DNA of 64,000 nt, taken from NCBI RefSeq assembly GCF_001677475.2, contig NZ_CP015229.1; one strand, written 5' to 3'. The notes beneath the pieces were generated by a model, which ran no database searches, was not told where the DNA came from, and worked only from the letters and a program-made list of their open reading frames with translations. Made by a program: the position numbers and the translations under genes. Shown one piece after another: positions 36,191 to 58,582 of the stretch (the stretch's first letter is position 1; each line of letters starts with the position of its first letter). The DNA is from Escherichia coli (GTDB lineage: Bacteria > Pseudomonadota > Gammaproteobacteria > Enterobacterales > Enterobacteriaceae).

Positions 36191-36400
36191 GCGCTTATCT
36201 CCGGCACTCTCAGTGGCTTAGCTCTTGAAGGGGCGATAAGAATAATCTCATAAAGCTAACCCGCCGTTTTAACACAAACTGCGATTAGTATTATTTTTGA
36301 ACAATATCAGGCGGGTAGATAAGCAGTATTAAGAAGGCCATCGAACCTGGACGGAGATTAATCCAGGTCGATATGGCGAACTTGCGGCATTAAGTCAGGA

Positions 36401-41944: not shown

Positions 41945-42081
41945 AACATTTTTCCGCTTCGCTACCTCGCCCCTCACTCTTTCCAATAATGTTGCACAAG
42001 ATACTGTGACTCTCTTCAAGCCGTCAGCAGGCTGATAATGTTATTTATATTTTATTGTTTATTTCATGCAGCCATTACACG

Positions 42082-43752: not shown

Positions 43753-43978
43753 TGCAATATTCTTTTCAGGTCATGCAAAATCTTACGGATAAATAACTCT
43801 TTCTGCGCTAACTAAGGAAAATCGCGATCAAAAACAAACTATGACATGCAATATTCCTGGAAACATAAACTTTATGCCATGTACCCAGGGAAAATCATCT
43901 TCAGTATAGTAATTATGTAAACCGTCGGAGAACAATACGTACGGTAACGAAATTATCTTTCAGCAAGGAGCTGTGAAA

Positions 43979-45244
43979 ATGTCTCAACATAAGGCTTTCA
44001 GCACGCCATTTATCCTGGCTGTTCTTTGTATTTACTTCAGCTACTTCCTGCACGGCATTAGTGTTATTACGCTTGCCCAAAATATGTCATCTCTGGCGGA
44101 AAAGTTTTCCACTGACAACGCGGGCATTGCCTACTTAATTTCCGGTATCGGTTTGGGGCGATTGATCAGTATTTTATTCTTCGGTGTGATCTCCGATAAG
44201 TTTGGTCGTCGGGCGGTGATATTAATGGCAGTAATAATGTATCTGCTATTCTTCTTTGGTATTCCCGCTTGCCCGAATTTAACTCTCGCCTACGGTCTGG
44301 CAGTGTGCGTAGGTATCGCTAACTCAGCGCTGGATACGGGTGGCTACCCCGCGCTCATGGAATGCTTTCCGAAAGCCTCTGGTTCGGCGGTCATACTGGT
44401 TAAAGCGATGGTGTCATTCGGGCAAATGTTCTACCCAATGCTGGTGAGCTATATGTTGCTCAATAACATCTGGTACGGCTATGGGCTGATTATTCCGGGT
44501 ATTCTGTTTGTACTGATCACGCTGATGCTGTTGAAAAGCAAATTCCCCAGCCAGTTGGTGGACGCCAGCGTAGCTAATGAATTACCGCAAATGAACAGCA
44601 AACCATTAGTCTGGCTGGAAGGTGTTTCATCGGTACTGTTCGGTGTAGCCGCATTCTCGACCTTTTATGTGATTGTGGTGTGGATGCCCAAATATGCGAT
44701 GGCTTTTGCTGGTATGTCAGAAGCTGAAGCATTAAAAACCATCTCTTATTACAGTATGGGCTCGTTGGTCTGTGTCTTTATTTTTGCCGCACTACTGAAA
44801 AAAATGGTCCGGCCCATCTGGGCTAATGTATTTAACTCTGCACTGGCAACAATAACAGCAGCCATTATCTACCTGTACCCTTCTCCACTGGTGTGTAATG
44901 CCGGAGCCTTTGTTATCGGTTTCTCAGCAGCTGGCGGCATTTTACAGCTCGGCGTTTCGGTCATGTCAGAGTTTTTCCCCAAAAGCAAAGCCAAAGTCAC
45001 CAGTATTTATATGATGATGGGTGGACTGGCTAACTTTGTTATTCCGCTGATTACCGGTTATCTGTCGAACATCGGTCTGCAATATATCATTGCTCTCGAT
45101 TTTACTTTCGCGCTGCTGGCCCTGATTACCGCAATTATTGTCTTTATCCGCTATTACCGCGTTTTCATTATTCCTGAAAATGATGTGCGGTTTGGCGAGC
45201 GTAAATTTAGCACCCGGTTAAACACAATTAAGCATAGAGGTTAA
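43979..45244 (+). CDS. ydiN: MFS transporter YdiN
   Basis: 421 aa from MSQHKAF; paralogous to YdiM. Confidence 0.9.
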
Positions 45245-45255
45245 AGGAGTTAATT

Positions 45256-46122
45256 ATGGATGTTACCGCAAAATACGAATTGATTGGGCTGATGGCCTAT
45301 CCTATCCGCCACAGTTTATCGCCTGAAATGCAGAATAAAGCCTTAGAAAAAGCGGGATTGCCATTTACCTATATGGCCTTCGAAGTGGATAACGATAGCT
45401 TTCCCGGAGCAATTGAAGGATTAAAAGCCTTAAAAATGCGCGGAACTGGTGTATCAATGCCAAACAAACAACTGGCGTGTGAATATGTTGATGAATTAAC
45501 GCCAGCTGCCAAACTGGTGGGTGCCATCAACACCATCGTTAATGATGATGGCTACCTGCGTGGTTATAACACCGACGGCACAGGCCATATTCGCGCCATT
45601 AAAGAGAGCGGTTTTGATATCAGAGGCAAAACGATGGTGCTGCTAGGTGCCGGTGGCGCCTCAACGGCGATTGGCGCGCAGGGGGCAATTGAAGGTTTAA
45701 AAGAAATTAAACTCTTTAACCGTCGGGATGAGTTCTTCGATAAAGCCCTCGCCTTCGCGCAGCGGGTTAACGAAAACACCGATTGCGTCGTCACGGTTAC
45801 CGATCTCGCCGATCAGCAAGCCTTTGCTGAAGCCCTGGCTTCCGCCGACATTTTAACCAATGGCACAAAAGTGGGTATGAAACCCCTTGAGAATGAATCA
45901 TTGGTTTATGATATCAGTCTGTTACATCCGGGACTGCTGGTCACTGAATGCGTGTATAACCCGCATATGACGAAGTTATTGCAGCAGGCGCAACAAGCTG
46001 GTTGCAAAACGATTGATGGATACGGCATGTTGTTGTGGCAAGGGGCTGAACAGTTCACGTTATGGACTGGCAAAGATTTCCCTCTGGAATATGTTAAACA
46101 GGTCATGGGGTTCGGTGCCTGA
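45256..46122 (+). CDS. ydiB: Quinate/shikimate dehydrogenase
   Basis: 288 aa AroE-like enzyme with NAD(P) Rossmann motif (GAGGAS). Confidence 0.95.
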
Positions 46123-46152
46123 CAGGCTGACCGCGTGCAGAAAGGGTAAAAA

Positions 46153-46911
46153 ATGAAAACCGTAACTGTAAAAGATCTCGTCATTGGTGCGGGCGCACCT
46201 AAAATCATCGTCTCGCTGATGGCGAAAGATATCGCCCGCGTGAAATCCGAAGCTCTCGCCTATCGTGAAGTGGACTTTGATATTCTGGAATGGCGTGTGG
46301 ACCACTTTGCCGACCTCTCCAATGTGGAGTCTGTCATGGCGGCGGCAAAAATTCTACGTGAAACCATGCCAGAAAAACCGCTGCTGTTTACCTTCCGCAG
46401 TGCCAAAGAAGGCGGCGAGCAGGCGATTTCCACCGAGGCTTATATTGCTCTCAATCGTGCAGCCATCGACAGCGGCCTGGTTGATATGATCGATCTGGAG
46501 TTATTTACCGGCGATGATCAGGTTAAAGAAACCGTCGCCTACGCCCACGCGCATGATGTGAAAGTTGTCATGTCCAACCATGACTTCCATAAAACGCCGG
46601 AAGCCGAAGAAATCATTGCCCGTCTGCGCAAAATGCAGTCCTTCGACGCCGATATTCCTAAGATTGCGCTGATGCCGCAAAGTACCAGCGATGTGCTGAC
46701 GTTGCTTGCCGCGACCCTGGAGATGCAGGAGCAGTATGCCGATCGTCCAATCATCACGATGTCAATGGCAAAAACTGGCGTAATTTCTCGTCTGGCTGGT
46801 GAAGTATTTGGCTCGGCGGCAACTTTTGGTGCGGTAAAAAAAGCCTCTGCGCCAGGGCAAATCTCGGTAAATGATTTGCGCACAGTATTAACTATTTTAC
46901 ATCAGGCATAA
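46153..46911 (+). CDS. aroD: 3-dehydroquinate dehydratase type I
   Basis: 252 aa ORF matching AroD. Confidence 0.97.
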
Positions 46912-47056
46912 GCAATAATATTTCGGCGGGAATATCCTCCCCCGCCGAACTAAAAAAAATATATTCAACCGTATTTAATAAAAATATTTCGTGAGTCTCT
47001 GTGCGCTAATTATCCATCTGGCGTAGGGAAAATCACACCTGAATCAGGAATTAACA

Positions 47057-48652
47057 ATGAAACCTGTAAAACCACCTCGTATTAATGGACGAGTGCCGGT
47101 CCTGTCGGCACAGGAAGCGGTGAATTATATTCCCGACGAAGCAACACTTTGTGTGTTAGGCGCTGGCGGCGGTATTCTGGAAGCCACCACGTTAATTACT
47201 GCTCTTGCTGATAAATATAAACAGACTCAAACGCCACGTAATTTATCGATTATTAGTCCAACAGGGCTTGGCGATCGCGCCGACCGTGGTATTAGTCCTC
47301 TGGCGCAAGAAGGTCTGGTGAAATGGGCATTATGTGGTCACTGGGGACAATCGCCGCGTATTTCTGAACTCGCAGAACAAAATAAAATTATTGCTTATAA
47401 CTACCCACAAGGTGTACTTACACAAACCTTACGCGCCGCCGCAGCCCACCAGCCTGGTATTATTAGTGATATTGGCATCGGGACATTTGTCGATCCACGC
47501 CAGCAAGGCGGCAAACTGAATGAAGTCACTAAAGAAGAGCTGATTAAACTGGTCGAGTTTGATAACAAAGAATATCTCTATTACAAAGCGATTGCGCCAG
47601 ATATCGCCTTCATTCGCGCTACCACCTGCGACAGTGAAGGCTACGCCACTTTTGAAGATGAGGTGATGTATCTCGACGCATTGGTTATTGCCCAGGCGGT
47701 GCACAATAACGGCGGTATTGTGATGATGCAGGTGCAGAAAATGGTTAAGAAAGCCACGCTGCATCCTAAATCTGTCCGTATTCCGGGTTATCTGGTGGAT
47801 ATTGTGGTGGTCGATCCGGATCAAAGCCAACTGTATGGCGGTGCGCCGGTTAACCGCTTTATTTCTGGTGACTTCACCCTTGATGACAGCACCAAACTTA
47901 GCCTGCCCCTAAACCAACGTAAATTAGTTGCGCGGCGTGCATTATTCGAAATGCGTAAAGGCGCGGTGGGGAATGTCGGCGTCGGTATTGCTGACGGCAT
48001 TGGCCTGGTCGCCCGGGAAGAAGGTTGTGCTGATGACTTTATTCTGACGGTAGAAACAGGTCCGATTGGCGGAATTACTTCACAGGGTATCGCCTTTGGC
48101 GCGAACGTGAATACCCGCGCCATTCTGGATATGACGTCCCAGTTTGATTTTTATCACGGTGGTGGTCTGGATGTTTGTTATTTGAGTTTTGCTGAAGTCG
48201 ACCAACACGGTAACGTCGGCGTGCATAAATTCAATGGAAAAATCATGGGTACCGGTGGATTTATTGATATCAGTGCCACCTCGAAGAAAATTATTTTCTG
48301 CGGCACGTTAACTGCGGGCAGTTTAAAAACAGAAATTGCCGATGGCAAATTGCATATCGTCCAGGAAGGACGGGTAAATAAATTTATTCGGGAACTACCG
48401 GAAATTACTTTTAGCGGAAAAATCGCTCTCGAGCGAGGGCTAGATGTTCGTTATATCACTGAGCGCGCAGTATTCACGCTGAAAGAAGACGGACTGCATT
48501 TAATCGAAATCGCTCCAGGCGTCGATTTACAAAAAGATATTCTCGACAAAATGGATTTCACCCCAGTGATTTCGCCAGAACTCAAACTGATGGACGAAAG
48601 ATTATTTATCGATGCGGCGATGGGTTTTGTCCTGCCTGAAGCGGCTCATTAA
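47057..48652 (+). CDS. ydiF: Acyl-CoA:acetate CoA-transferase (fused alpha/beta subunits) YdiF
   Basis: 531 aa family-I CoA-transferase. Confidence 0.93.
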   Translation: MKPVKPPRINGRVPVLSAQEAVNYIPDEATLCVLGAGGGILEATTLITALADKYKQTQTPRNLSIISPTGLGDRADRGISPLAQEGLVKWALCGHWGQSPRISELAEQNKIIAYNYPQGVLTQTLRAAAAHQPGIISDIGIGTFVDPRQQGGKLNEVTKEELIKLVEFDNKEYLYYKAIAPDIAFIRATTCDSEGYATFEDEVMYLDALVIAQAVHNNGGIVMMQVQKMVKKATLHPKSVRIPGYLVDIVVVDPDQSQLYGGAPVNRFISGDFTLDDSTKLSLPLNQRKLVARRALFEMRKGAVGNVGVGIADGIGLVAREEGCADDFILTVETGPIGGITSQGIAFGANVNTRAILDMTSQFDFYHGGGLDVCYLSFAEVDQHGNVGVHKFNGKIMGTGGFIDISATSKKIIFCGTLTAGSLKTEIADGKLHIVQEGRVNKFIRELPEITFSGKIALERGLDVRYITERAVFTLKEDGLHLIEIAPGVDLQKDILDKMDFTPVISPELKLMDERLFIDAAMGFVLPEAAH

Positions 48653-48665
48653 CAGGAGTATAATG

Positions 48666-49817
48666 ATGGATTTTTCTTTAACTGAAGAACAAGAACTGCT
48701 GCTGGCCAGTATTCGCGAACTGATTACGACTAACTTTCCGGAAGAGTATTTCCGCACCTGCGATCAAAACGGGACATATCCGCGTGAGTTTATGCGGGCA
48801 CTGGCGGATAACGGTATTTCCATGCTTGGCGTGCCGGAAGAGTTCGGCGGCATCCCTGCGGATTACGTCACCCAGATGCTGGCGCTGATGGAAGTGTCAA
48901 AATGCGGTGCTCCGGCATTTTTGATTACCAATGGTCAATGTATTCACAGTATGCGCCGTTTCGGTTCTGCAGAGCAGCTACGTAAAACGGCAGAAAGCAC
49001 CCTGGAAACCGGCGACCCCGCCTATGCCCTGGCGTTGACGGAACCAGGTGCTGGCTCAGATAACAACAGCGCCACCACCACTTACACGCGTAAAAACGGC
49101 AAGGTTTACATCAACGGACAGAAAACCTTTATTACCGGTGCGAAAGAGTACCCGTATATGCTGGTGCTGGCGCGCGATCCTGAACCGAAAGATCCGAAAA
49201 AGGCCTTCACCCTGTGGTGGGTCGACTCCAGTAAGCCCGGCATTAAGATTAACCCGCTGCATAAAATCGGCTGGCATATGCTCAGCACCTGCGAAGTCTA
49301 TCTCGACAACGTAGAGGTTGAAGAGAGCGACATGGTGGGCGAAGAAGGAATGGGTTTCCTCAATGTGATGTACAACTTTGAGATGGAGCGCCTGATCAAC
49401 GCCGCGCGCAGCACCGGCTTTGCCGAATGCGCATTCGAAGATGCCGCCCGCTATGCCAACCAGCGTATCGCTTTTGGTAAACCTATTGGGCATAACCAGA
49501 TGATCCAGGAAAAACTGGCGCTGATGGCGATTAAGATCGACAACATGCGCAACATGGTGCTGAAAGTGGCATGGCAAGCCGATCAGCATCAGTCACTGCG
49601 CACCAGCGCGGCGCTGGCAAAACTGTACTGCGCACGTACCGCAATGGAAGTTATTGATGATGCGATTCAAATCATGGGCGGTCTGGGCTATACCGATGAG
49701 GCGCGCGTCTCTCGCTTCTGGCGTGATGTCCGTTGTGAACGTATCGGCGGCGGTACAGACGAAATCATGATTTACGTAGCGGGTCGGCAGATCCTGAAAG
49801 ATTATCAGAACAAATAA
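48666..49817 (+). CDS. ydiO: Acyl-CoA dehydrogenase-family protein YdiO
   Basis: 383 aa from MDFSLTEEQ; the track ORF has an 18-codon upstream extension overlapping ydiF. Confidence 0.93.
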   Translation: MDFSLTEEQELLLASIRELITTNFPEEYFRTCDQNGTYPREFMRALADNGISMLGVPEEFGGIPADYVTQMLALMEVSKCGAPAFLITNGQCIHSMRRFGSAEQLRKTAESTLETGDPAYALALTEPGAGSDNNSATTTYTRKNGKVYINGQKTFITGAKEYPYMLVLARDPEPKDPKKAFTLWWVDSSKPGIKINPLHKIGWHMLSTCEVYLDNVEVEESDMVGEEGMGFLNVMYNFEMERLINAARSTGFAECAFEDAARYANQRIAFGKPIGHNQMIQEKLALMAIKIDNMRNMVLKVAWQADQHQSLRTSAALAKLYCARTAMEVIDDAIQIMGGLGYTDEARVSRFWRDVRCERIGGGTDEIMIYVAGRQILKDYQNK

Positions 49818-49859
49818 TCTGCAGGCGGCGCAGCTTCTTAACAAACTGCGCCGCCAGAT

Positions 49860-50771
49860 TTATCCGGCAAGACTTACCGGTTGAGGAAATTCAGATAAGA
49901 TTTCTTGTTCCGCAAAACAGTTTTTAAATTGCCTGCGGTAATCGCTGGGCGAACAGCCGACATGGCGCAAAAACAGTTTGGCAAAGTGATCAACATTTTC
50001 ATAACCCACACGCCAGGAGATCTCTGCCTGTGATAATTCAGTATTAGTGAGTGACCATTTCGCTTCCGTCATACGCCGTTGAATAACATAGTTAATAGGG
50101 GAAATACGATACTCTTTGGTAAATTCATGGCAAATATAACTGACGCTGGCACGAAACTTTTTCGATAACTGCTCTAAAGTGATTTTTTCGCGATAGTTAT
50201 TATTCAGATAGAAAAGAATATCTTTTATCAGAACATCTTTTTTAATATATCCCTGCTCCGAACGATAAGCATTTTTAAAGTTTTCGTAGTAAAGAATTGC
50301 TAACGTATAGGCAAAGGCGTCCCATAACGAAGATGTTTGGCTATTTTTACTTTGCGGCAAAATCACACTTAGCTCATTAAATAAGGTTTTAATGACTTCT
50401 TTTCCCTGCCCTGCGGCAATTACCGGGCAAGAATGCGGTTGCAGTAGCTGATTTTCCTCAGCCCCCTGAAACTGAAAGCCGTACAGCGCACAGGTACACG
50501 TCGTTGCTGGATCGTTAACGTCAGAGGCCACCGCATGCAGCCTGCCACGTTCTATCACCACAATGTCATCGGCGTGCGCGACATATAACGAAGAATCGAT
50601 GGTAAACCTTGCTACCCCTTTCTTGACGTAAATCAACTCGGTTTCATTGTCATGAACGTGATGTCCGGACTCCCATTTTGGATCATCGCTAAATGCAAAA
50701 CGTGAAAGCCGTGGCGTTTTACCGGCGACAAACAGCGTTTCGCTGGCGTTATCAAAACAGCGTTGATACAT
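49860..50771 (-). CDS. ydiP: AraC-family transcriptional regulator YdiP
   Basis: 303 aa with C-terminal AraC helix-turn-helix; divergent from ydiQ. Confidence 0.9.
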   Translation of the reverse strand: MYQRCFDNASETLFVAGKTPRLSRFAFSDDPKWESGHHVHDNETELIYVKKGVARFTIDSSLYVAHADDIVVIERGRLHAVASDVNDPATTCTCALYGFQFQGAEENQLLQPHSCPVIAAGQGKEVIKTLFNELSVILPQSKNSQTSSLWDAFAYTLAILYYENFKNAYRSEQGYIKKDVLIKDILFYLNNNYREKITLEQLSKKFRASVSYICHEFTKEYRISPINYVIQRRMTEAKWSLTNTELSQAEISWRVGYENVDHFAKLFLRHVGCSPSDYRRQFKNCFAEQEILSEFPQPVSLAG

Positions 50772-51086
50772 GACAACCTCCCTATTCCATGAGCAAGCAA
50801 AAACAATATATGCCGGATAAAATACGGCGTGTATTGCGGTTATACAACCGCGTTTAGCGAGAGCTAAACAAGATTATTTACACTGAATGCAAGATTGTAC
50901 GGTCATGGAATAACAACATTGCCGCAAATTGCACTTTTGTTTTAGCGATCGCATTTTTTTTGCAAGATTGTTGGCAAGGAAAACAGCTTGCTCCGTCGAA
51001 AACCCCGCACCGCTATCGCACACTATTTTCAGGCCATATTTACCTTCCATCGGAGATGGTTCCGTATGCGACTCACAGGAGAAATC

Positions 51087-51851
51087 ATGAAAATAATAAC
51101 CTGCTTTAAGCTGGTGCCTGAAGAACAGGACATTGTTGTCACTCCAGAATATACCCTGAATTTCGACAATGCCGACGCCAAAATCAGCCAGTTCGATCTC
51201 AATGCCATTGAAGCTGCAAGCCAGCTTGCATCAGATGACGATGAGATAGCCGCGCTGACCATTGGTGGCTCATTGTTGCAGAACTCGAAAGTGCGAAAAG
51301 ACGTGCTATCCCGCGGGCCGCACAGCCTGTATTTGGTGCAGGATGCGCAACTTGAACATGCACTGCCTCTCGATACCGCAAAGGCGCTGGCGGCAGCAGT
51401 TGAAAAGATCGGCTTCGATTTACTGATCTTTGGTGAAGGTTCCGGCGACCTTTATGCCCAGCAGGTTGGCTTGCTGGTCGGAGAAATTCTGCAACTTCCG
51501 GTGATTAATGCAGTGAGTGCTATTCAGCGTCAGGGCAATACACTGGTGATTGAACGCACGCTTGAAGATGATGTTGAAGTTATTGAACTCTCTGTTCCAG
51601 CCGTGCTCTGCGTCACCTCCGATATTAACGTGCCACGCATTCCTTCGATGAAAGCCATTCTTGGCGCGGGTAAAAAACCGGTAAATCAGTGGCAGGCAAG
51701 TGATATTGGCTGGAGCCAGAGCGCACCACTTGCTGAACTGACCGGCATTCGCGTACCGCCGCAAACAGAACGTAAGCACATCATTCTCGATAACAATTCG
51801 CCGGAGGCCATTGCCGAGCTGGCGGAACATCTGAAGAAAGCCCTGAACTGA
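51087..51851 (+). CDS. ydiQ: Electron transfer flavoprotein beta-subunit-like YdiQ
   Basis: 254 aa from MKIITCFKLVPEEQ, FixA-like. Confidence 0.93.
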   Translation: MKIITCFKLVPEEQDIVVTPEYTLNFDNADAKISQFDLNAIEAASQLASDDDEIAALTIGGSLLQNSKVRKDVLSRGPHSLYLVQDAQLEHALPLDTAKALAAAVEKIGFDLLIFGEGSGDLYAQQVGLLVGEILQLPVINAVSAIQRQGNTLVIERTLEDDVEVIELSVPAVLCVTSDINVPRIPSMKAILGAGKKPVNQWQASDIGWSQSAPLAELTGIRVPPQTERKHIILDNNSPEAIAELAEHLKKALN

Positions 51852-51870
51852 AGCCTACGGAGAAGAAACG

Positions 51871-52809
51871 ATGAGTCAATTAAACAGCGTCTGGGTCTTT
51901 AGCGATAATCCTGAACGTTATGCTGAACTATTTGGCGGCGCGCAGCAATGGGGCCAACAGGTGTATGCCATTGTACAAAATACCGACCAGGCGCAGGCAG
52001 TTATGCCTTATGGGCCAAAATGTATTTATGTTCTTGCGCAAAACGACGCACTGCAACGTACTGAAAATTACGCCGAAAGCATTGCTGCCCTGCTGAAAGA
52101 TAAACCCCCCGCTATGTTGCTGCTGGCCGCGACGAAACGTGGTAAAGCGCTGGCAGCACGGTTAAGTGTGCAACTGAATGCGGCGCTGGTGAACGATGCC
52201 ACGGCAGTGGATATTGTCGATGGTCACATTTGCGCCGAACACCGGATGTATGGCGGGTTAGCGTTCGCTCAGGAAAAGATCAACAGCCCGCTGGCGATCA
52301 TTACCCTTGCACCCGGTGTTCAGGAACCGTGCACCAGTGATACCTCTCATCAGTGCCCGACAGAAACGGTACCTTATGTTGCTCCGCGTCATGAAATTCT
52401 CTGTCGCGAACGCCGTGCGAAAGCCGCAAGCAGCGTGGACCTGAGCAAAGCAAAACGTGTGGTTGGCGTCGGTCGTGGTCTGGCGGCGCAGGATGACCTG
52501 AAAATGGTCCACGAACTGGCGGCGGTGCTGAATGCTGAAGTCGGCTGTTCACGTCCAATTGCCGAAGGCGAGAACTGGATGGAGCGTGAACGTTATATCG
52601 GTGTCTCCGGCGTGTTGCTGAAATCCGATCTCTACCTGACGCTGGGGATCTCCGGGCAGATCCAGCATATGGTTGGCGGCAACGGCGCAAAAGTGATTGT
52701 CGCCATCAATAAAGATAAAAATGCGCCAATCTTCAATTATGCCGACTACGGTCTGGTGGGCGATATCTACAAAGTCGTCCCTGCCCTGATTAGCCAGTTG
52801 AGCCGCTAA
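51871..52809 (+). CDS. ydiR: Electron transfer flavoprotein alpha-subunit-like YdiR
   Basis: 312 aa, FixB-like. Confidence 0.93.
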   Translation: MSQLNSVWVFSDNPERYAELFGGAQQWGQQVYAIVQNTDQAQAVMPYGPKCIYVLAQNDALQRTENYAESIAALLKDKPPAMLLLAATKRGKALAARLSVQLNAALVNDATAVDIVDGHICAEHRMYGGLAFAQEKINSPLAIITLAPGVQEPCTSDTSHQCPTETVPYVAPRHEILCRERRAKAASSVDLSKAKRVVGVGRGLAAQDDLKMVHELAAVLNAEVGCSRPIAEGENWMERERYIGVSGVLLKSDLYLTLGISGQIQHMVGGNGAKVIVAINKDKNAPIFNYADYGLVGDIYKVVPALISQLSR

Positions 52810-52864
52810 TTCCCCTTTCAACCACATCTCCCGCTGTAAACGCAGCGGGAAGGGAGCATAACGG

Positions 52865-54154
52865 ATGTCGGATGACAAATTTGATGCCATTGTGGTCGGT
52901 GCGGGCGTTGCTGGTAGCGTTGCCGCACTGGTCATGGCGCGAGCCGGGCTGGATGTCCTGGTGATAGAACGCGGCGACAGTGCCGGATGTAAAAACATGA
53001 CCGGCGGGCGTCTTTATGCCCACACACTTGAAGCAATCATTCCAGGCTTTGCAGTATCAGCGCCGGTAGAACGCAAGGTCACACGCGAGAAAATCTCCTT
53101 CTTAACCGAAGAAAGCGCCGTTACCCTCGATTTTCACCGCGAGCAACCAGATGTTCCGCAACACGCGTCTTATACCGTATTGCGTAATCGTCTGGACCCG
53201 TGGTTGATGGAACAAGCCGAGCAGGCGGGCGCGCAGTTTATCCCGGGCGTACGCGTCGATGCGCTGGTTCGTGAAGGAAACAAGGTCACTGGCGTCCAGG
53301 CTGGGGATGATATTCTCGAAGCGAATGTGGTGATTCTGGCTGATGGCGTTAACTCGATGCTTGGCCGCTCGCTGGGAATGGTTCCCGCTTCCGATCCGCA
53401 TCATTACGCTGTTGGTGTTAAAGAGGTTATTGGCCTGACACCAGAACAGATCAACGATCGCTTTAATATTACGGGCGAGGAAGGTGCCGCCTGGCTGTTT
53501 GCCGGTTCCCCTTCTGACGGCCTGATGGGTGGCGGATTCCTCTATACCAACAACGATTCCGTATCGTTGGGGCTGGTTTGTGGATTGGGTGATATCGCCC
53601 ATGCGCAAAAAAGCGTGCCGCAAATGCTGGAAGATTTTAAACAACACCCCGCCATTCGCCCGCTGATTAGCGGCGGCAAGTTGCTTGAATATTCCGCGCA
53701 TATGGTGCCAGAAGGCGGTCTGGCAATGGTGCCGCAGCTGGTTAACGATGGCGTGATGATCGTCGGTGACGCCGCAGGCTTCTGCCTGAATTTGGGTTTT
53801 ACGGTCCGCGGCATGGATTTAGCCATTGCATCGGCTCAGGCTGCCGCCACAACGGTGATCGCCGCCAAAGAACGCGCGGATTTCTCCGCCAGCAGTCTTG
53901 CGCAATACAAACGTGAGCTGAAACAAAGCTGCGTCATGCGTGATATGCAGCATTTTCGCAAGATCCCGGCGCTGATGGAAAACCCGCGCCTGTTTAGCCA
54001 ATACCCACGAATGGTAGCCGACATCATGAACGAGATGTTCACCATTGACGGCAAACCAAACCAGCCGGTACGCAAAATGATCATGGGACATGCGAAGAAA
54101 ATTGGGCTGATCAACTTGCTGAAAGATGGCATTAAGGGAGCAACCGCGCTATGA
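52865..54154 (+). CDS. ydiS: ETF-quinone-oxidoreductase-like flavoprotein YdiS
   Basis: 429 aa, FixC-like, with N-terminal FAD motif (VVGAGVAGS). Confidence 0.93.
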   Translation: MSDDKFDAIVVGAGVAGSVAALVMARAGLDVLVIERGDSAGCKNMTGGRLYAHTLEAIIPGFAVSAPVERKVTREKISFLTEESAVTLDFHREQPDVPQHASYTVLRNRLDPWLMEQAEQAGAQFIPGVRVDALVREGNKVTGVQAGDDILEANVVILADGVNSMLGRSLGMVPASDPHHYAVGVKEVIGLTPEQINDRFNITGEEGAAWLFAGSPSDGLMGGGFLYTNNDSVSLGLVCGLGDIAHAQKSVPQMLEDFKQHPAIRPLISGGKLLEYSAHMVPEGGLAMVPQLVNDGVMIVGDAAGFCLNLGFTVRGMDLAIASAQAAATTVIAAKERADFSASSLAQYKRELKQSCVMRDMQHFRKIPALMENPRLFSQYPRMVADIMNEMFTIDGKPNQPVRKMIMGHAKKIGLINLLKDGIKGATAL

Positions 54155-54444
54155 GCCAGAACGCTACGGTTAACGTCGACATCAAATTAGGCGTCAATAA
54201 ATTCCATGTTGATGAGGGCCACCCGCATATCATTTTGGCGGCAAATCCCGATATCAATGAATTCCGTAAATTAATGAAAGCCTGCCCGGCCGGACTTTAT
54301 AAGCAGGATGATGCCGGCAACATTCATTTTGATTCTGCCGGTTGTCTGGAGTGCGGCACCTGTCGGGTGCTGTGCGGTAACACTATTCTCGAACAGTGGC
54401 AATATCCCGCAGGCACCTTCGGTATTGATTTTCGCTACGGCTAA
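54151..54444 (+). CDS. ydiT: Ferredoxin-like protein YdiT
   Basis: 97 aa, FixX-like, with C-x-x-C-x-x-C cluster; 4-bp overlap with ydiS. Confidence 0.93.
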   Translation: MSQNATVNVDIKLGVNKFHVDEGHPHIILAANPDINEFRKLMKACPAGLYKQDDAGNIHFDSAGCLECGTCRVLCGNTILEQWQYPAGTFGIDFRYG

Positions 54445-54446
54445 TC

Positions 54447-56123
54447 ATGCATCCCACAGGCCCGCATCTCGGGCCTGATGTTCTGTTTCAAGAGTCCAAA
54501 ATGAAAGTGACATTAACGTTTAACGAACAACGTCGTGCGGCGTATCGTCAGCAAGGGCTATGGGGCGATGCTTCGCTGGCCGATTACTGGCAGCAGACCG
54601 CTCGTGCGATGCCTGACAAAATTGCCGTGGTCGATAATCATGGAGCATCGTACACCTATAGCGCGCTCGATCACGCCGCGAGCTGTCTGGCAAACTGGAT
54701 GTTAGCGAAGGGGATTGAATCAGGCGATCGCATCGCATTTCAACTGCCAGGCTGGTGTGAATTTACCGTTATCTATCTTGCCTGCCTGAAAACCGGTGCG
54801 GTTTCCGTACCGCTGTTGCCTTCCTGGCGGGAAGCAGAACTGGTATGGGTACTCAATAAGTGTCAGGCAAAAATGTTCTTTGCACCGACGTTGTTTAAAC
54901 AAACGCGTCCGGTAGATTTAATCCTGCCGCTGCAAAATCAGCTTCCACAACTACAACAAATTGTCGGCGTGGACAAACTGGCTCCCGCCACCTCTGCTCT
55001 CTCATTAAGTCAGATTATCGCCGACAATACTCCTCTGACCACGGCGATAACGGTCCACGGCGATGAATTAGCCGCGGTGCTGTTTACCTCCGGAACCGAG
55101 GGTCTGCCAAAGGGCGTGATGCTAACGCATAACAATATTCTCGCCAGTGAGCGGGCTTATTGCGCGCGGCTGAATCTGACCTGGCAGGATGTCTTTATGA
55201 TGCCTGCGCCACTTGGTCACGCAACGGGCTTTCTGCATGGCGTAACAGCACCATTTTTAATTGGTGCTCGCAGCGTGTTGTTAGATATTTTCACTCCTGA
55301 TGCGTGTCTCGCGCTGCTTGAGCAGCAGCGTTGCACCTGTATGCTCGGCGCAACGCCGTTTGTCTATGATCTTTTGAATTTACTGGAGAAACAACCCGCA
55401 GACCTTTCAGCGCTGCGCTTCTTTCTTTGCGGCGGGACCACAATCCCCAAAAAAGTGGCGCGTGAATGCCAGCAGCGCGGCATTAAATTATTAAGTGTTT
55501 ATGGTTCCACAGAAAGTTCGCCGCATGCGGTGGTGAATCTCGATGATCCTTTGTCGCGCTTTATGCACACCGATGGTTACGCTGCCGCAGGTGTAGAGAT
55601 TAAAGTGGTCGATGACGCACGCAAGACCTTACCGCCAGGTTGCGAAGGTGAAGAAGCCTCGCGTGGCCCCAATGTGTTTATGGGGTATTTTGATGAACCT
55701 GAATTAACTGCCCGTGCGCTGGATGAAGAAGGCTGGTATTACAGCGGCGATCTCTGCCGTATGGATGAGGCTGGCTATATAAAAATTACCGGACGCAAAA
55801 AAGATATTATTGTCCGCGGCGGCGAAAATATTAGCAGCCGTGAAGTGGAAGATATTTTATTGCAGCATCCTAAAATTCACGATGCCTGTGTGGTTGCAAT
55901 GCCCGATGAACGTTTAGGTGAACGATCATGCGCTTATGTCGTGCTGAAAGCACCGCATCATTCATTATCGCTGGAAGAGGTGGTGGCTTTTTTTAGCCGT
56001 AAACGGGTCGCAAAATATAAATATCCTGAACTTATCGTGGTAATCGAAAAACTACCGCGCACTGCCTCAGGTAAAATACAAAAGTTTTTGTTAAGAAAAG
56101 ATATTATGCGGCGGTTAACTTAG
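54447..56123 (+). CDS. fadK: Short/medium-chain acyl-CoA synthetase FadK (YdiD); start uncertain (54447 or 54501)
   Basis: AMP-binding signature (LFTSGTEGLPKGV) and C-terminal lysine motif. Confidence 0.9.
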   Translation: MHPTGPHLGPDVLFQESKMKVTLTFNEQRRAAYRQQGLWGDASLADYWQQTARAMPDKIAVVDNHGASYTYSALDHAASCLANWMLAKGIESGDRIAFQLPGWCEFTVIYLACLKTGAVSVPLLPSWREAELVWVLNKCQAKMFFAPTLFKQTRPVDLILPLQNQLPQLQQIVGVDKLAPATSALSLSQIIADNTPLTTAITVHGDELAAVLFTSGTEGLPKGVMLTHNNILASERAYCARLNLTWQDVFMMPAPLGHATGFLHGVTAPFLIGARSVLLDIFTPDACLALLEQQRCTCMLGATPFVYDLLNLLEKQPADLSALRFFLCGGTTIPKKVARECQQRGIKLLSVYGSTESSPHAVVNLDDPLSRFMHTDGYAAAGVEIKVVDDARKTLPPGCEGEEASRGPNVFMGYFDEPELTARALDEEGWYYSGDLCRMDEAGYIKITGRKKDIIVRGGENISSREVEDILLQHPKIHDACVVAMPDERLGERSCAYVVLKAPHHSLSLEEVVAFFSRKRVAKYKYPELIVVIEKLPRTASGKIQKFLLRKDIMRRLT

Positions 56124-56171
56124 GATGTCTGTGAAGAGATTGAATAAGTTTCATCTTCGGGGATCACATAA

Positions 56172-56210
56172 ACCCGGCGACAAAACGCCGCCGGGTATTT
56201 ATTTTATTTC
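56172..56210 (+). terminator. Terminator hairpin after fadK, overlapping the ppsA 3' end
   Basis: ACCCGGCG-acaaaacgc-CGCCGGGT followed by ATTTATTTTATTT. Confidence 0.65.
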
Positions 56211-58582
56211 TTCAGTTCAGCCAGGCTTAACCAGGTTTGCACCACGGTGTCCGGATTCAGAGACAGGCTATCGATCCCCTCTTCCATCAACCATGCGGCA
56301 AAGTCTTCGTGGTCGGACGGGCCCTGACCGCAAATCCCGACATATTTGCCCTGTTTCTTCGCGGCACGGATAGCCATCGACAGCAATGCTTTCACCGCAT
56401 CGTTGCGCTCATCGAACAGTTCAGACACCACGCCGGAGTCACGGTCCAGGCCGAGCGCCAGCTGCGTCATATCGTTTGAGCCAATTGAGAAGCCGTCGAA
56501 ATATTCGAGGAACTGCTCTGCCAGCAAGGCGTTGGACGGGATTTCACACATCATGATGATTTTCAGCCCGTTCTCACCACGTTTCAGCCCCTGACGCGCC
56601 AGTTCCTCAACCACCGCTTTCGCCTGATCTACGGTACGCACGAACGGGATCATGATCTCAACGTTGGTCAGCCCCATGTCGTTGCGCACACGTTTCACTG
56701 CTTCACACTCCAGCGCGAAACAGTCGCGGAAGCTGTCGGAAACATAGCGGCCCGCGCCACGGAAGCCGAGCATCGGGTTCTCTTCATCTGGCTCGTAACG
56801 CTCACCACCGACCAGGTTGGCATATTCGTTCGATTTAAAATCAGAGAGACGGACAATGACGCGCTTCGGATAAAACGCGGCACCCAGCGTCGCGATCCCT
56901 TCAGTCAGACGACCAACGTAAAATTCACGCGGAGAATCAAAACCTTTCATCATCTCGCGGATTTCGTTTTGCAACTGCGGTTCCTGATCGTCAAACTCAA
57001 GCAGTGCGCGTGGGTGGACGCCAATCATACGGTTGATGATAAATTCCAGACGCGCAAGGCCCACGCCTTCGTTCGGCAGGCAGGCGAAGTCGAAAGCACG
57101 GTCCGGGTTACCGACGTTCATCATCACTTTCAACGGCAGATCCGGCATCGTTTCTACGCTGGAGCTTTTCACGCTAAATTCCAGCAACTCCGCATAGACG
57201 TAACCAGTATCACCTTCGGCACAAGAAACAGTGACGTTCTCACCGTCTTTCATCCGTTCTGTTGCATCACCACAGCCCACTACCGCCGGAATGCCCAGTT
57301 CACGAGCGATGATCGCCGCGTGACAGGTACGACCGCCACGGTTGGTGACGATGGCAGATGCTTTCTTCATGATCGGTTCCCAGTCCGGGTCGGTCATGTC
57401 AGTGACCAGCACGTCACCAGGTTCGATGCGGTTCATTTCGCTGATGTCATGGATGACTTTCACCGGACCCGCACCGATGCGATGACCGATAGCACGGCCT
57501 TCGGCGATAATCTTACCCTGTGAATGCAGCGTATAACGCTCCATGACCTGACCGCGTGAGCGCACGGTTTCCGGACGCGCCTGCACAATGAACAGTTTAC
57601 CGGTGTGGCCATCTTTCGCCCACTCAATATCCATCGGGCGACCGTAGTGTTTCTCAATTTGTACGGCCTGTTTTGCCAGTTCCTGCACTTCTTCGTTGGT
57701 CAGCGAGAAGATGTCACGCTGTTCCTGCGGTACGTCTTCGATTTTAACCTGCTTGCCGTGCTCCTGGGTCGGCGCGTAGACCATGCGTATTTTTTTCGAC
57801 CCCATGGTGCGGCGCACGATAGCCGGGCGATTCGCCGCCAGTGTCGGTTTATGCACGTAAAACTCATCCGGGTTAACCGCACCCTGCACGACCATTTCCC
57901 CAAGGCCCCATGCGGAAGTGATAAATACCACCTGGTCAAAGCCGGATTCGGTATCAATGGAGAACATCACGCCAGAAGATGCGAGGTCGGAGCGCACCAT
58001 CCGCTGAACACCGGCAGAGAGAGCCACGCCACGGTGATCGTAACCCTGGTGCACACGATAAGAGATGGCGCGATCGTTAAACAGAGAAGCAAATACATGC
58101 TTCACTGCCACGAGAACGGCGTCAAAACCCTGAACGTTGAGGAAGGTTTCCTGCTGACCGGCAAAGGAAGCGTCCGGCATGTCTTCTGCGGTGGCGGAGG
58201 AGCGTACCGCAAAAGAGGCGTTTTCGTCATCGGCGGAAAGCTGTGCATAGGCTTCGCGGATGGCGTTTTCCAGCTCAGGCTGGAAGGGAGTGTCGATAAT
58301 CCACTGGCGGATTTGCGCGCCCGCTTTCGCAAGCTGAGTAACATCGTCAATATCCGTTTTATCCAGCAGTTCATAAATGCGCTGGTTTACGCCGCTTTGG
58401 TCCAGAAACTGGTTAAACGCGTCGGCGGTTGTGGCGAAACCATTCGGAACGGAAACACCCATCCCAGAAAGGTTAGTAATCATTTCACCCAGGGAGGCAT
58501 TTTTGCCCCCAACCCTGTCTACATCATTCATGCCGAGTTGGTTATACCAAAGCACCAGCGGTGACGAGCCATTGTTGGACAT
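56204..58582 (-). CDS. ppsA: Phosphoenolpyruvate synthase
   Basis: 792 aa with pyruvate,phosphate dikinase-type domains. Confidence 0.97.

What the first reader, a model, noticed from the sequence alone, without database searches (positions are those of the whole stretch)
45256..56123. Flavin-based acyl-CoA redox module (ydiFO, ydiP, ydiQRST, fadK) next to shikimate/quinate genes
The block combines a CoA-transferase (YdiF), an acyl-CoA dehydrogenase (YdiO), a divergent AraC-type regulator (YdiP), a FixABCX-like electron-transfer set (YdiQRST: ETF beta, ETF alpha, ETF-QO-like, ferredoxin-like) and an acyl-CoA synthetase (FadK). It lies immediately downstream of ydiN-ydiB-aroD (MFS transporter, quinate/shikimate dehydrogenase, dehydroquinase). 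The arrangement parallels caiTABCDE/fixABCX and suggests an anaerobic enoyl-CoA reduction or beta-oxidation-like pathway; the native substrate of YdiO is still debated.
Basis: partly seen in the sequence, partly recalled or inferred. Interest (0 to 1): 0.4.

Follow-up and report, generated by a model that had tools for sequence, protein, structure and literature searches.

The report
E. coli ydi acyl-CoA reductase cluster
This is the well-known but functionally unsettled ydi gene cluster of E. coli, and comparison with other bacteria suggests it works together with its quinate/shikimate neighbours to reduce these plant acids without oxygen, rather than to burn fatty acids.

Summary
Window 45256-56123 runs from the ydiB start codon to the fadK stop codon. 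It holds ydiB, aroD, ydiF, ydiO, ydiP (- strand), ydiQRST and fadK. All are intact and 97-99.7% identical to the K-12 proteins. At least 80% of the block is present in 5348 of 5426 complete E. coli genomes. The Cai/Fix parallel is true paralogy for six proteins: YdiO/CaiA 48%, YdiQRST/FixABCX 45-63%, FadK/CaiC 29%. The locus itself is already known.

What the tools add is that ydiN-ydiB-aroD are probably part of the module, not just neighbours. In five of six gene orders seen where YdiO is at least 77% identical, a type I dehydroquinase stays with ydiF-ydiO. These include Sutterella and unidentified low-GC organisms where ydiB-aroD sit between ydiR and ydiS. More distant YdiO-like modules (63-68%) lack it. 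A 12-nt box repeated at 21-bp spacing marks both the ydiN upstream region and the ydiP-ydiQ region.

My best reading is a Cai/Fix-like, CoA-dependent reduction of quinate/shikimate. This is inferred and untested. Sutterella wadsworthensis, which carries the cluster, is reported to respire shikimate. The fatty-acid beta-oxidation reading remains a weaker rival.

The parts
43753..43785 (+). Weak pair of 12-nt boxes (TGCAATATTCTT, then TGCAAAATCTTA 21 bp later), about 200 bp upstream of ydiN. Candidate operator.
   Evidence: The window copy has 2+4 mismatches and falls below my threshold. Better copies at the same place pass the threshold in 18 Enterobacterales loci, both Sutterella loci and MAG L036.
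43979..45244 (+). ydiN, an MFS transporter. Proposed importer of the hydroaromatic acid.
   Evidence: 99% identical to K-12 YdiN. Collinear with ydiB-aroD-ydiF-ydiO in all loci with enough flank. The literature proposes shikimate-related cargo.
45256..46122 (+). ydiB, NAD(P)-dependent quinate/shikimate dehydrogenase.
   Evidence: NCBIfam NF009390 scores 667 bits against a cut-off of 349. 99.3% identical to K-12.
46153..46911 (+). aroD, type I 3-dehydroquinate dehydratase.
   Evidence: TIGR01093 scores 294 bits against a cut-off of 139. 98.4% identical to K-12.
46922..46949 (+). GC-rich hairpin (9-bp stem) in the 145-bp aroD-ydiF gap, followed by an A-run rather than a U-tract.
   Evidence: -17.3 kcal/mol, z = -2.65. 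It is not a canonical + strand intrinsic terminator, so read-through from aroD into ydiF is neither shown nor excluded.
47057..48652 (+). ydiF, a fused family I acyl-CoA:carboxylate CoA-transferase.
   Evidence: Identical in length and near-identical to PDB 2AHU/2AHV/2AHW, deposited as 'putative enzyme ydiF'. 99.1% identical to K-12.
48666..49817 (+). ydiO, an acyl-CoA dehydrogenase-family flavoprotein and CaiA paralogue. Proposed enoyl-CoA reductase.
   Evidence: NF008997 scores 787 bits against a cut-off of 537; the CaiA model scores 452 bits. 48% identical to CaiA. 91-97% identical across Enterobacterales and 80-84% in Sutterella.
49860..50771 (-). ydiP, an AraC-family regulator. Convergent with ydiO and divergent from ydiQ.
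   Evidence: A 45%-identical homologue sits next to the rearranged cluster in L058.
50867..50899 (+). Direct repeat of two 12-nt boxes at 21-bp spacing (AACAAGATTATT, TGCAAGATTGTA) beside ydiP. Candidate YdiP operator.
   Evidence: It is the only such pair in the 64-kb window, against 0.01 expected. The same architecture occurs in the ydiP-ydiQ region of 15 loci and beside the YdiP homologue of L058.
50961..50972 (+). Third box, TGCAAGATTGTT, 126 bp upstream of the ydiQ start codon.
   Evidence: Exact copy. Conserved 109-149 bp upstream of ydiQ in Escherichia, Kosakonia, Serratia, Symbiopectobacterium and Yersinia, and at the corresponding position in Citrobacter.
51087..51851 (+). ydiQ, ETF beta-type subunit (FixA paralogue).
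   Evidence: NF008998 scores 495 bits against a cut-off of 338. 55% identical to FixA. Best solved relative is CarD, 6FAH_B.
51871..52809 (+). ydiR, ETF alpha-type subunit (FixB paralogue).
   Evidence: NF008884 scores 687 bits against a cut-off of 528. 45% identical to FixB. Best solved relatives are ETFs that belong, from my knowledge, to bifurcating complexes.
52865..54154 (+). ydiS, a FixC-like ETF:quinone oxidoreductase-type flavoprotein.
   Evidence: NF007450 scores 973 bits. 61% identical to FixC. Scores 243 bits against 7KOE_C, deposited as FixC.
54151..54444 (+). ydiT, a FixX-like ferredoxin-like protein. Overlaps ydiS by 4 bp.
   Evidence: Scores 144 bits against the FixX model, below its 166-bit cut-off. 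63% identical to FixX.
54447..56123 (+). fadK (ydiD), an acyl-CoA synthetase. Here it is 8 residues shorter at the C-terminus because of a CAG->TAG change.
   Evidence: 29% identical to CaiC.
56172..56196 (+). Hairpin followed by a U-rich run. Intrinsic terminator of fadK, shared tail-to-tail with ppsA.
   Evidence: -28.6 kcal/mol for the 91-nt stretch, z = -3.5.

Best explanation
This is the chromosomal ydi locus of E. coli. I read ydiN-ydiB-aroD-ydiF-ydiO, ydiP and ydiQRST-fadK as one functional unit. The unit would be a Cai/Fix-type, CoA-dependent system that uses a hydroaromatic plant acid (quinate or shikimate) as an anaerobic electron sink.

Proposed steps:
1. YdiN imports the acid.
2. 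YdiB oxidises quinate to 3-dehydroquinate.
3. AroD dehydrates that to 3-dehydroshikimate, which creates a C=C bond conjugated to the carboxylate.
4. YdiB can reduce this product to shikimate.
5. FadK makes the first CoA thioester at the cost of ATP.
6. YdiF then recycles CoA from product to fresh substrate.
7. YdiO reduces the enoyl-CoA double bond, using electrons delivered by the ETF YdiQR. YdiQR is fed through the FixC-like YdiS and the ferredoxin-like YdiT.
8. YdiP, an AraC-type regulator, controls both transcription units through 21-bp-spaced box pairs.

Shown here: gene identities, paralogy to Cai/Fix, conserved and rearranged linkage to dehydroquinase and shikimate dehydrogenase, and the shared cis-element. 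Inferred: the substrate, the direction of electron flow, the roles of FadK and YdiF, and YdiP as the factor that binds the boxes.
For: Linkage: in about 40 Enterobacterales species, ydiN-ydiB-aroD-ydiF-ydiO are collinear.
- In Sutterella seckii and S. wadsworthensis (Betaproteobacteria) the same five genes stay collinear, while ydiQRST lies upstream and inverted and ydiP and fadK are absent.
- In L058/L059 the order is MFS-ydiF-ydiO-ydiQ-ydiR-ydiB-aroD-ydiS-ydiT. There YdiB is 77% and AroD 69% identical to the window proteins.
- In L061 it is MFS-MFS-ydiF-ydiO-ydiQ-ydiR-ydiB-aroD, without FixCX-type genes.
- In L054/L055 a type I dehydroquinase sits between ydiR and ydiS, overlapping ydiR by 4 bp in L055.
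- L063 has ydiB-aroD-ydiF-ydiO.
- YdiO-like proteins at 63-68% identity sit in similar modules (family III CoA-transferase, MFS and ETF subunits; FixCX-like genes and a ligase in two of the three). None has a dehydroquinase or shikimate dehydrogenase.

Cis-element: all 36 box pairs at 21-bp spacing in 839 kb of 43 loci lie on the coding strand, either upstream of ydiN (21 loci) or in the ydiP-ydiQ region (15 loci). Ten other spacings gave 0-1 pairs. The window has one such pair against 0.01 expected.

Literature:
- S. wadsworthensis grows by reducing the enoate of shikimate to hydroshikimate. A reductase was assigned only in E. lenta.
- ydiQ, ydiR, ydiS and ydiT are listed together among the differentially expressed genes of a shikimate-overproducing E. 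coli.
- ydiN is co-expressed with ydiB and aroD.
- Rat gut flora convert shikimate to cyclohexanecarboxylate.
- The fatty-acid role of YdiQR and FadK is called unproven.
- The ydi genes decay in extraintestinal Salmonella.
Against: - No experiment links YdiF, YdiO or FadK to quinate or shikimate.
- FadK has measured activity on C6-C8 fatty acids, and a fadD fadK double mutant cannot use fatty acids.
- A 2016 paper, cited but not readable here, claims by its title that ydiO and ydiQRST encode the anaerobic beta-oxidation acyl-CoA dehydrogenase complex.
- The nearest named family to YdiF is staphylococcal FadX, from a fatty-acid degradation context.
- AroD is also the biosynthetic dehydroquinase of E. 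coli, so part of its linkage could reflect other constraints.
- Within Enterobacterales the shared gene order may simply be inherited.
- One YdiO-bearing contig (L062, 82%) has MFS-ydiF-ydiO with no dehydroquinase nearby.
- S. wadsworthensis encodes many flavin reductases that could account for its shikimate reduction.
- The box motif was defined after I saw it in the window, and the loci are related to each other.
- The direction of the expression change is not fully clear, and growth phase is a confounder.
Confidence: 0.5

Rival explanations
1. Anaerobic fatty-acid beta-oxidation. FadK activates short and medium-chain fatty acids. YdiO, with YdiQRST as its electron acceptor chain to quinone, is the anaerobic acyl-CoA dehydrogenase. 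FadIJ supply the remaining steps. The adjacency to ydiB-aroD is historical accident.
For: This is the standing annotation and the usual reading in the literature (PMC3967523, citing Gulevich et al. 2016). FadK is active on C6-C8 acids in vitro, and a fadD fadK double mutant fails on fatty acids. The best named family match for YdiF is staphylococcal FadX.
Against: The 2022 review states that experimental evidence for YdiQR in fatty-acid use is lacking. It also states that fadK is not controlled by FadR or CRP, and that transcriptome studies do not confirm its anaerobic induction. No hydratase, hydroxyacyl-CoA dehydrogenase or thiolase is in the cluster. fadK is the dispensable member: it is missing from the Sutterella, L058 and L061 versions. 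The dehydroquinase is kept in all of these versions and in L054 and L063; of the YdiO-bearing contigs at 77% or above it is missing only from L062. This reading does not explain the shared box pairs upstream of ydiN and ydiQ.
Confidence: 0.2
2. Reduction of another unsaturated acid, for example a hydroxycinnamate (caffeate respiration of the CarABCDE type) or acrylate or crotonate. In this reading ydiB-aroD serve only quinate/shikimate interconversion.
For: The architecture of ligase, CoA-transferase, ACAD and ETF matches the Car system. YdiQ's best solved relative is CarD (6FAH_B), and CarC is among the YdiO matches (158 bits). Acryloyl-CoA reductase models are among the next-best NCBIfam hits for YdiO, YdiQ and YdiR. 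From my knowledge, chlorogenic acid releases both caffeate and quinate.
Against: No phenylpropanoid-related gene travels with the cluster. What travels with it is dehydroquinase, shikimate dehydrogenase and a YdiN-type MFS. YdiR lacks the N-terminal extension of CarE, since it aligns to CarE residues 69-392. The similarity to CarC and CarD is no higher than to generic ACADs and ETFs.
Confidence: 0.1
3. There is no common pathway. ydiN-ydiB-aroD, ydiFO and ydiQRST-fadK are separate units that happen to be syntenic in Enterobacterales, and some may be evolutionary relics with little function in E. coli.
For: The consensus promoter and terminator scan gives no more sites than chance. A hairpin and a 145-bp gap separate aroD from ydiF. 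ydiP interrupts the block on the other strand.
Against: pN/pS is 0.065 and all genes are intact. The block is present in 98.6% of complete E. coli genomes. YdiO is 91-97% identical across Enterobacterales. Linkage survives several independent rearrangements and a transfer to Sutterella. The same cis-element is present at both promoter regions.
Confidence: 0.1

Closest known systems
E. coli carnitine system caiTABCDE / fixABCX (crotonobetaine reduction)
   Same: The reductase is homologous (YdiO/CaiA 48%), as is the four-subunit electron-transfer set (45-63%) and the ligase (29%). The logic is the same: transporter, a step that makes the enoate, ATP-dependent priming, CoA recycling by a transferase, and ACAD-type reduction fed by an ETF. 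Both systems are split into two transcription units, and the ydi locus has its regulator gene within it.
   Different: The CoA-transferase is family I (YdiF), not family III (CaiB), and no similarity is detectable. The transporter is an MFS rather than CaiT. No crotonase-type CaiD or CaiE is present. The proposed enoate-forming step uses free-acid enzymes (YdiB, AroD). The regulator is AraC-type rather than CaiF.
Acetobacterium woodii caffeate respiration CarABCDE (structure 6FAH)
   Same: Both have a ligase for priming, a CoA-transferase loop, an ACAD-family enoyl-CoA reductase and an ETF. CarD is the best solved relative of YdiQ.
   Different: From my knowledge Car has no FixC/FixX-type partners. 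YdiR lacks the N-terminal extension of CarE. Overall similarity is generic for ACADs and ETFs.
FixABCX / EtfABCX electron-bifurcating complexes (the 7KOE cryo-EM structure, which from my knowledge is from Thermotoga maritima; diazotroph Fix)
   Same: The four-subunit composition is the same. YdiS scores 243 bits against FixC of 7KOE.
   Different: Here the complex is linked to an acyl-CoA reductase, not to nitrogenase or ferredoxin supply. Whether YdiQR bifurcates is not decided by sequence scores.
Anaerobic shikimate and quinate reduction by gut and food bacteria
   Same: The overall chemistry is the one proposed. S. wadsworthensis and E. lenta reduce the enoate of shikimate to hydroshikimate as a respiratory acceptor. 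Rat gut flora convert shikimate to cyclohexanecarboxylate. From my own knowledge, and not checked here, lactobacilli were reported in the 1950s-1970s to reduce quinate to dihydroshikimate.
   Different: The one reductase assigned so far (E. lenta) is a flavin reductase of the respiratory type that the authors compare with fumarate and urocanate reductases, and no CoA esters are mentioned. No CoA-dependent route has been described in the papers I could search.
Clostridium propionicum acrylate pathway (propionate CoA-transferase plus acryloyl-CoA reductase/ETF)
   Same: Acryloyl-CoA reductase subunit models are among the next-best NCBIfam matches for YdiO, YdiQ and YdiR. From my knowledge, YdiF belongs to the same family I transferase group as propionate CoA-transferase, and that pathway also turns a hydroxy acid into an enoyl-CoA and reduces it.
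   Different: All scores are far below the equivalog cut-offs. In that pathway, dehydration happens on the CoA ester. It has no FixC/FixX-type partners.

Membership tests
E. coli K-12 ydi locus (orthology) | Same genes in the same order and orientation between ydiM and ppsA | tested here: met
   Collinear over 20 kb with K-12 at 98.3% nucleotide identity and with strain PapM-32-1 at 98.2%.
E. coli K-12 ydi locus (orthology) | Near-identical, intact proteins | tested here: met
   97.2-99.7% amino-acid identity over full length. pN/pS is 0.065. Only FadK differs, losing 8 C-terminal residues.
Cai/Fix-type CoA-dependent enoate reduction | CaiA-like ACAD-family reductase | tested here: met
   YdiO is 48% identical to CaiA over full length. 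The CaiA model scores 452 bits, below its own cut-off of 540, so YdiO is a paralogue and not CaiA itself.
Cai/Fix-type CoA-dependent enoate reduction | FixABCX-like four-gene electron-transfer set | tested here: met
   YdiQ, YdiR, YdiS and YdiT are 55, 45, 61 and 63% identical to FixA, FixB, FixC and FixX.
Cai/Fix-type CoA-dependent enoate reduction | CaiB-type (family III) CoA-transferase | tested here: not met
   BLASTP finds no similarity between YdiF and CaiB at E <= 1e-5. YdiF is a family I enzyme (PF01144 in its homologues; PDB 2AHU). The function may be analogous.
Cai/Fix-type CoA-dependent enoate reduction | CaiC-like CoA ligase | tested here: met
   FadK is 29% identical to CaiC over 534 residues, E = 6e-52.
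Cai/Fix-type CoA-dependent enoate reduction | CaiD crotonase-type dehydratase and CaiT antiporter | tested here: not met
   No homologue appears in the block. AroD and YdiN are proposed non-homologous functional counterparts.
Cai/Fix-type CoA-dependent enoate reduction | Reductive direction, with the product excreted and the acid serving as an anaerobic electron sink | not testable with these tools
   Needs physiology and enzymology.
Anaerobic fatty-acid beta-oxidation set | Enoyl-CoA hydratase, 3-hydroxyacyl-CoA dehydrogenase and thiolase encoded with, or co-regulated with, the dehydrogenase | tested here: not met
   None is in the block or in any of about 50 related loci, apart from one MaoC-type gene in L061. 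FadIJ lie elsewhere in the genome.
Anaerobic fatty-acid beta-oxidation set | FadR or fatty-acid control | not tested
   I did not scan for FadR sites. The 2022 review reports no evidence of FadR or CRP control of fadK.
Anaerobic fatty-acid beta-oxidation set | Acyl-CoA synthetase active on fatty acids | not testable with these tools
   Reported for FadK in the literature (C6-C8). Other substrates were apparently not tried.
Car-type caffeate respiration | CarE-type ETF alpha subunit with an N-terminal extension (a ferredoxin-like domain, from my knowledge) | tested here: not met
   YdiR (312 aa) aligns to CarE residues 69-392 only.
Electron-bifurcating ETF (FixAB/EtfAB group) | Second, bifurcating FAD and an NADH site in the ETF | tested here: inconclusive
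   YdiR scores 118-133 bits against five ETF alpha subunits that belong, from my knowledge, to bifurcating complexes. A sixth such subunit, 4KPU_A, scores only 103 bits, below the 107-108 bits of canonical ETFs. The margin is too small to decide, and I did not check motifs.

The most novel reading that the evidence does not exclude
The ydi cluster (ydiN-ydiB-aroD-ydiFO, ydiP, ydiQRST-fadK) encodes a previously undescribed CoA-dependent route. By this route E. coli, many other Enterobacterales and gut Sutterella would use dietary quinate or shikimate as an anaerobic electron acceptor, giving dihydroshikimate-type products under YdiP control. This would assign functions to about ten poorly understood E. 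coli genes. It would also supply genes for the long-observed reduction of shikimate and quinate by gut bacteria.
Probability: 0.45. Interest if true: 0.65.

Novelty: already known. Interest (0 to 1): 0.4.

Why it matters
The locus itself is textbook E. coli and would be ordinary on its own. However, YdiO, YdiF, YdiQRST, YdiP, YdiN and the physiological role of YdiB are still unassigned, and the usual 'anaerobic beta-oxidation' label rests on thin evidence. If the hydroaromatic reading is right, it explains three things at once. It explains why E. coli keeps a second, NAD-linked quinate/shikimate dehydrogenase. It explains why these genes decay in Salmonella lineages that have left the gut. It also shows how gut Proteobacteria could process quinate and shikimate from plant food, which feeds into host hippurate formation. 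The hypothesis is cheap to test with existing knockout collections and LC-MS.

Tried and rejected
- The consensus sigma-70 promoter and intrinsic terminator scan of 43700-56400 gave no more sites than shuffles (15 against 17.1, and 18 against 14.8). It says nothing about operon structure. Only the fadK/ppsA terminator and the aroD hairpin were worth folding.
- Literature searches for a direct link between ydiF/ydiO and quinate or shikimate found nothing. Nor did searches for dihydroshikimate/hydroshikimate gene assignments or CoA-dependent quinate reduction. Most 'dihydroshikimate' hits are misnomers for dehydroshikimate.
- The one supplementary file of the Little et al. preprint that is held as text has no occurrences of 'shikimate', 'acyl-CoA dehydrogenase' or 'dehydroquinate'.
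- Brewster et al. 1978 could not be read.
- The YdiO relative at 74% identity (L049/L050) is an orphan ACAD beside an aldo-keto reductase and gives no information. L056 is too short to use.
- Scores against solved structures do not settle whether YdiQR is a bifurcating ETF.
- I considered that the window might come from a cryptic Escherichia clade. It is closest to ordinary E. coli (98.1-98.2%) and much further from Escherichia sp., E. whittamii and E. albertii loci (88.7-96%).
- I did not run the metagenome scan, structure prediction or the large representative search, because the contexts already obtained answered the question.

Full report
**Observation.** The span 45256-56123 runs exactly from the start codon of ydiB to the stop codon of fadK.
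- The ORFs, in order, are ydiB, aroD, ydiF, ydiO, ydiP (- strand), ydiQ, ydiR, ydiS, ydiT and fadK. ydiN lies directly upstream and ppsA, convergent, directly downstream.
- NCBIfam equivalog or subfamily models fit YdiB, AroD, YdiO, YdiQ, YdiR and YdiS above their cut-offs. YdiT matches the FixX model at 144 bits, below its 166-bit cut-off. YdiP has only sub-cut-off AraC-family matches. YdiF's best named match is staphylococcal FadX, at about half its cut-off.
- The proteins are 97.2-99.7% identical to K-12. Nucleotide identity is 98.3% over 20 kb.
- Differences from K-12 are overwhelmingly synonymous, with pN/pS 0.065.
- At least 80% of the block is present in 5348 of 5426 complete E. coli genomes.
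- The only lesion is a CAG->TAG change that trims 8 residues from FadK.
This is the known ydi locus.

**Anatomy.**
- Gaps are short within ydiN-ydiB-aroD (11 and 30 bp), ydiF-ydiO (13 bp) and ydiQ-R-S-T-fadK (19 bp, 55 bp, a 4-bp overlap, then 2 or 56 bp depending on the fadK start).
- aroD and ydiF are separated by 145 bp. This gap holds a GC-rich hairpin followed by an A-run, not a U-tract.
- fadK ends in a canonical hairpin plus U-run, shared tail-to-tail with ppsA.
- ydiP is convergent with ydiO and divergent from ydiQ across 315 bp.
- Generic promoter and terminator scans were uninformative.

**The Cai/Fix parallel.** Against K-12 proteins, YdiO is 48% identical to CaiA. YdiQ, YdiR, YdiS and YdiT are 55, 45, 61 and 63% identical to FixA, FixB, FixC and FixX. 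FadK is 29% identical to CaiC. YdiF has no detectable similarity to CaiB, and no CaiD, CaiT or CaiE homologue is present. The parallel is therefore real paralogy for the redox core and the ligase, and only analogy for the rest.

**Solved structures.**
- YdiF has been solved (2AHU/2AHV/2AHW).
- YdiO has no close solved relative.
- YdiS resembles FixC of the 7KOE entry, which from my knowledge is the Thermotoga maritima EtfABCX complex.
- YdiQ and YdiR score slightly better against most ETFs that I know to belong to bifurcating complexes than against canonical ETFs. The margin is small and one such ETF (4KPU) scores below the canonical ones, so this is too weak to decide.

**Comparative context.** This is the main new result. 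A scan of one genome per species with YdiO returned 45 loci. I mapped the window proteins onto them.

| Gene order | Where |
|---|---|
| ydiN-ydiB-aroD-ydiF-ydiO, ydiP (-), ydiQRST-fadK | All Enterobacterales loci with enough flank: Escherichia, Citrobacter, Kosakonia, Intestinirhabdus, Yersinia, Serratia, Dickeya, Brenneria, Prodigiosinella, Symbiopectobacterium |
| ydiTSRQ (inverted), about 1.4 kb non-coding, then ydiN-ydiB-aroD-ydiF-ydiO; no ydiP or fadK within 10 kb | Sutterella seckii, S. wadsworthensis |
| AraC (-), then MFS-ydiF-ydiO-ydiQ-ydiR-ydiB-aroD-ydiS-ydiT-HAD | L058/L059 (YdiO 83%, GC 42%, organism unknown) |
| AraC-MFS-MFS-ydiF-ydiO-ydiQ-ydiR-ydiB-aroD, then ApbA, MaoC and glyoxalase-type genes; no FixCX | L061 (83%) |
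| MFS-ydiF-ydiO-ydiQ-ydiR-[type I dehydroquinase]-ydiS-ydiT-fadK; no shikimate dehydrogenase, but aldo-keto reductases flank it | L054/L055 (77%) |
| ydiB-aroD-ydiF-ydiO | L063 (85%) |
| MFS-ydiF-ydiO, no dehydroquinase nearby (the one exception) | L062 (82%) |

- YdiO is unusually conserved. It is 91-97% identical across the order and 92-93% between E. coli and Yersinia. For the same pair, AroD, YdiR, YdiP and FadK are 65-72% identical.
- In Sutterella YdiO is 80-84% identical to the window protein.
- Below about 70% identity, YdiO-like proteins sit in similar modules with a family III CoA-transferase, an MFS transporter and ETF subunits. The examples are Desulfovibrio desulfuricans, a second module in E. 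albertii, and L057. The Desulfovibrio and L057 modules also carry FixCX-like genes and a ligase. None of the three has a dehydroquinase or shikimate dehydrogenase.
- The dehydroquinase, usually with a YdiB-type dehydrogenase and a YdiN-type transporter, thus follows the YdiF/YdiO clade specifically, through several rearrangements and at least one transfer out of the Enterobacterales. I take this as good evidence of functional coupling.

**A shared cis-element.**
- The ydiP-ydiQ spacer contains AACAAGATTATT (50867) and TGCAAGATTGTA (50888), 21 bp apart. It also contains TGCAAGATTGTT (50961), 126 bp upstream of ydiQ.
- This is the only such pair in the 64-kb window, against 0.01 expected.
- A weaker pair at the same 21-bp spacing lies upstream of ydiN (43753 and 43774).
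- In 839 kb of 43 related loci, all 36 pairs at 21-bp spacing lie on the coding strand. They fall either upstream of ydiN (21 loci, including both Sutterella loci and MAG L036) or in the ydiP-ydiQ region (15 loci). Ten other spacings gave 0-1 pairs.
- In L058 the pair sits beside a YdiP homologue that is 45% identical.
- No pair lies between aroD and ydiF.
- Direct repeats 21 bp apart are typical of AraC-family operators (my knowledge). I therefore infer that YdiP controls both the ydiN-led and the ydiQ-led units.
- Caveats: I defined the motif after seeing it in the window, the loci are related to each other, and Sutterella has the boxes without a nearby ydiP.

**Literature.**
- The usual label is 'anaerobic beta-oxidation' (a 2016 paper cited).
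- A 2022 review says YdiQR are of unknown function and that evidence for a fatty-acid role is lacking. It adds that fadK is not under FadR or CRP control and that its anaerobic induction was not reproduced. The y-ome paper lists ydiO as poorly evidenced.
- On the other side, ydiN is co-expressed with ydiB and aroD and has been proposed to carry shikimate or a by-product.
- ydiQ, ydiR, ydiS and ydiT appear together among the differentially expressed genes in a comparison of stationary phases of a shikimate-overproducing strain. ydiQ also appears in an exponential-versus-stationary comparison. This is correlative, and the direction of change is not fully clear from the tables.
- S. wadsworthensis and E. 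lenta grow by reducing the enoate of shikimate to hydroshikimate. A reductase, of the flavin type, was assigned only in E. lenta.
- Rat gut flora turn shikimate into cyclohexanecarboxylate.
- I found no paper linking ydiF or ydiO to hydroaromatic acids.

**Most likely mechanism.** By analogy with carnitine and crotonobetaine:
1. YdiN imports quinate or shikimate.
2. YdiB and AroD convert quinate through 3-dehydroquinate to 3-dehydroshikimate. YdiB can take this on to shikimate. Either compound carries the enoate.
3. FadK primes with ATP.
4. YdiF shuttles CoA from product to substrate.
5. YdiO reduces the ring C=C of the CoA ester, with electrons from YdiQR, which are fed through YdiS and YdiT.
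6. The dihydro acid is released.

Steps 1-6 are inferred. The gene identities, paralogy, linkage and the cis-element are shown. I put about 0.85 on 'a Cai/Fix-like acyl-CoA redox module acting as one unit'. I put about 0.5 on the full statement, including the hydroaromatic substrate.

**Rivals.** Fatty-acid beta-oxidation (0.2), another unsaturated acid such as a hydroxycinnamate (0.1), and no common pathway (0.1).

**Verdict.** The finding is a correct reading of a known locus, so its novelty is 'already known'. Its interest is moderate.

Noticed in passing
window 1258-3666: A 2409-bp IS21-family element (ISEc10, istA/istB on the - strand) interrupts the lhr helicase gene. It is flanked by an 8-bp overlap of the K-12 sequence, which looks like a target-site duplication. 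It is 99.9% identical to copies in other E. coli chromosomes and plasmids.
   Followed up: partly
window 56121-56123: fadK ends at TAG where K-12 and strain PapM-32-1 have CAG, so FadK lacks its last 8 residues. Nearby there is also a His->Leu change in 'YPEHIVVIE'. The effect on activity is unknown.
   Followed up: partly
whole window: No complete E. coli genome out of 5426 is more than about 98.2-98.7% identical in two separate 10-kb stretches. Even so, the window is closest to ordinary E. coli and clearly further from Escherichia sp., E. whittamii and E. albertii. The source may be a lineage outside that collection, for example Shigella.
   Followed up: partly
window 41985-41996 (- strand): A box-like sequence (TGCAACATTATT) lies between rprA and ydiL. 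Matches in the corresponding upstream-of-ydiM region, on the minus strand, occur 34 times across the related loci. It could be a further site of the same regulator or simply conserved flanking sequence.
   Followed up: no
window 8904-9294 (-), 17887-18041 (+), 18006-18168 (-), 36174-36234 (-), 41839-41946 (+): Rfam matches above gathering score: STnc550, two tRNA genes at the position of K-12 valV and valW, the antisense family HPnc0260 overlapping the second tRNA, rydB and RprA.
   Followed up: no
L039 3655-5018 and L035 about 3400-4960 (Sutterella): About 1.4 kb with no ORF longer than 78 codons lies between the inverted ydiQ and ydiN. It carries several box-like sequences, including a 21-bp-spaced pair, although no ydiP homologue lies within 10 kb.
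   Followed up: partly
L053 (Escherichia albertii, Logan SRR13061442): E. albertii carries a second YdiO-like module (68% identical). Its order is AraC, family III CoA-transferase, MFS and a second ACAD, divergent from ACAD, ETF beta, ETF alpha and MFS. It has no FixC gene and no dehydroquinase.
   Followed up: no
L051/L052 (Desulfovibrio desulfuricans) and L057: These YdiO-like modules carry a metallo-beta-lactamase-fold gene between the FixX-like gene and the next gene of the module (the ligase in L051/L052, an MFS transporter in L057). A Cache-domain chemoreceptor lies beside the ligase. This suggests yet another, unknown acid substrate.
   Followed up: no
YdiO residues 241-242 and 361-366 (window 48666-49817): YdiO, CaiA and five YdiO-like proteins share an invariant Glu-Arg pair in the motif 'F-E/D-x-E-R'. 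They have Gly, Ser or Ala followed by Gly-Gly where, from memory, medium-chain acyl-CoA dehydrogenase has its catalytic Glu. This would fit a catalytic base placed as in isovaleryl-CoA dehydrogenase. I did not verify this against reference sequences.
   Followed up: no
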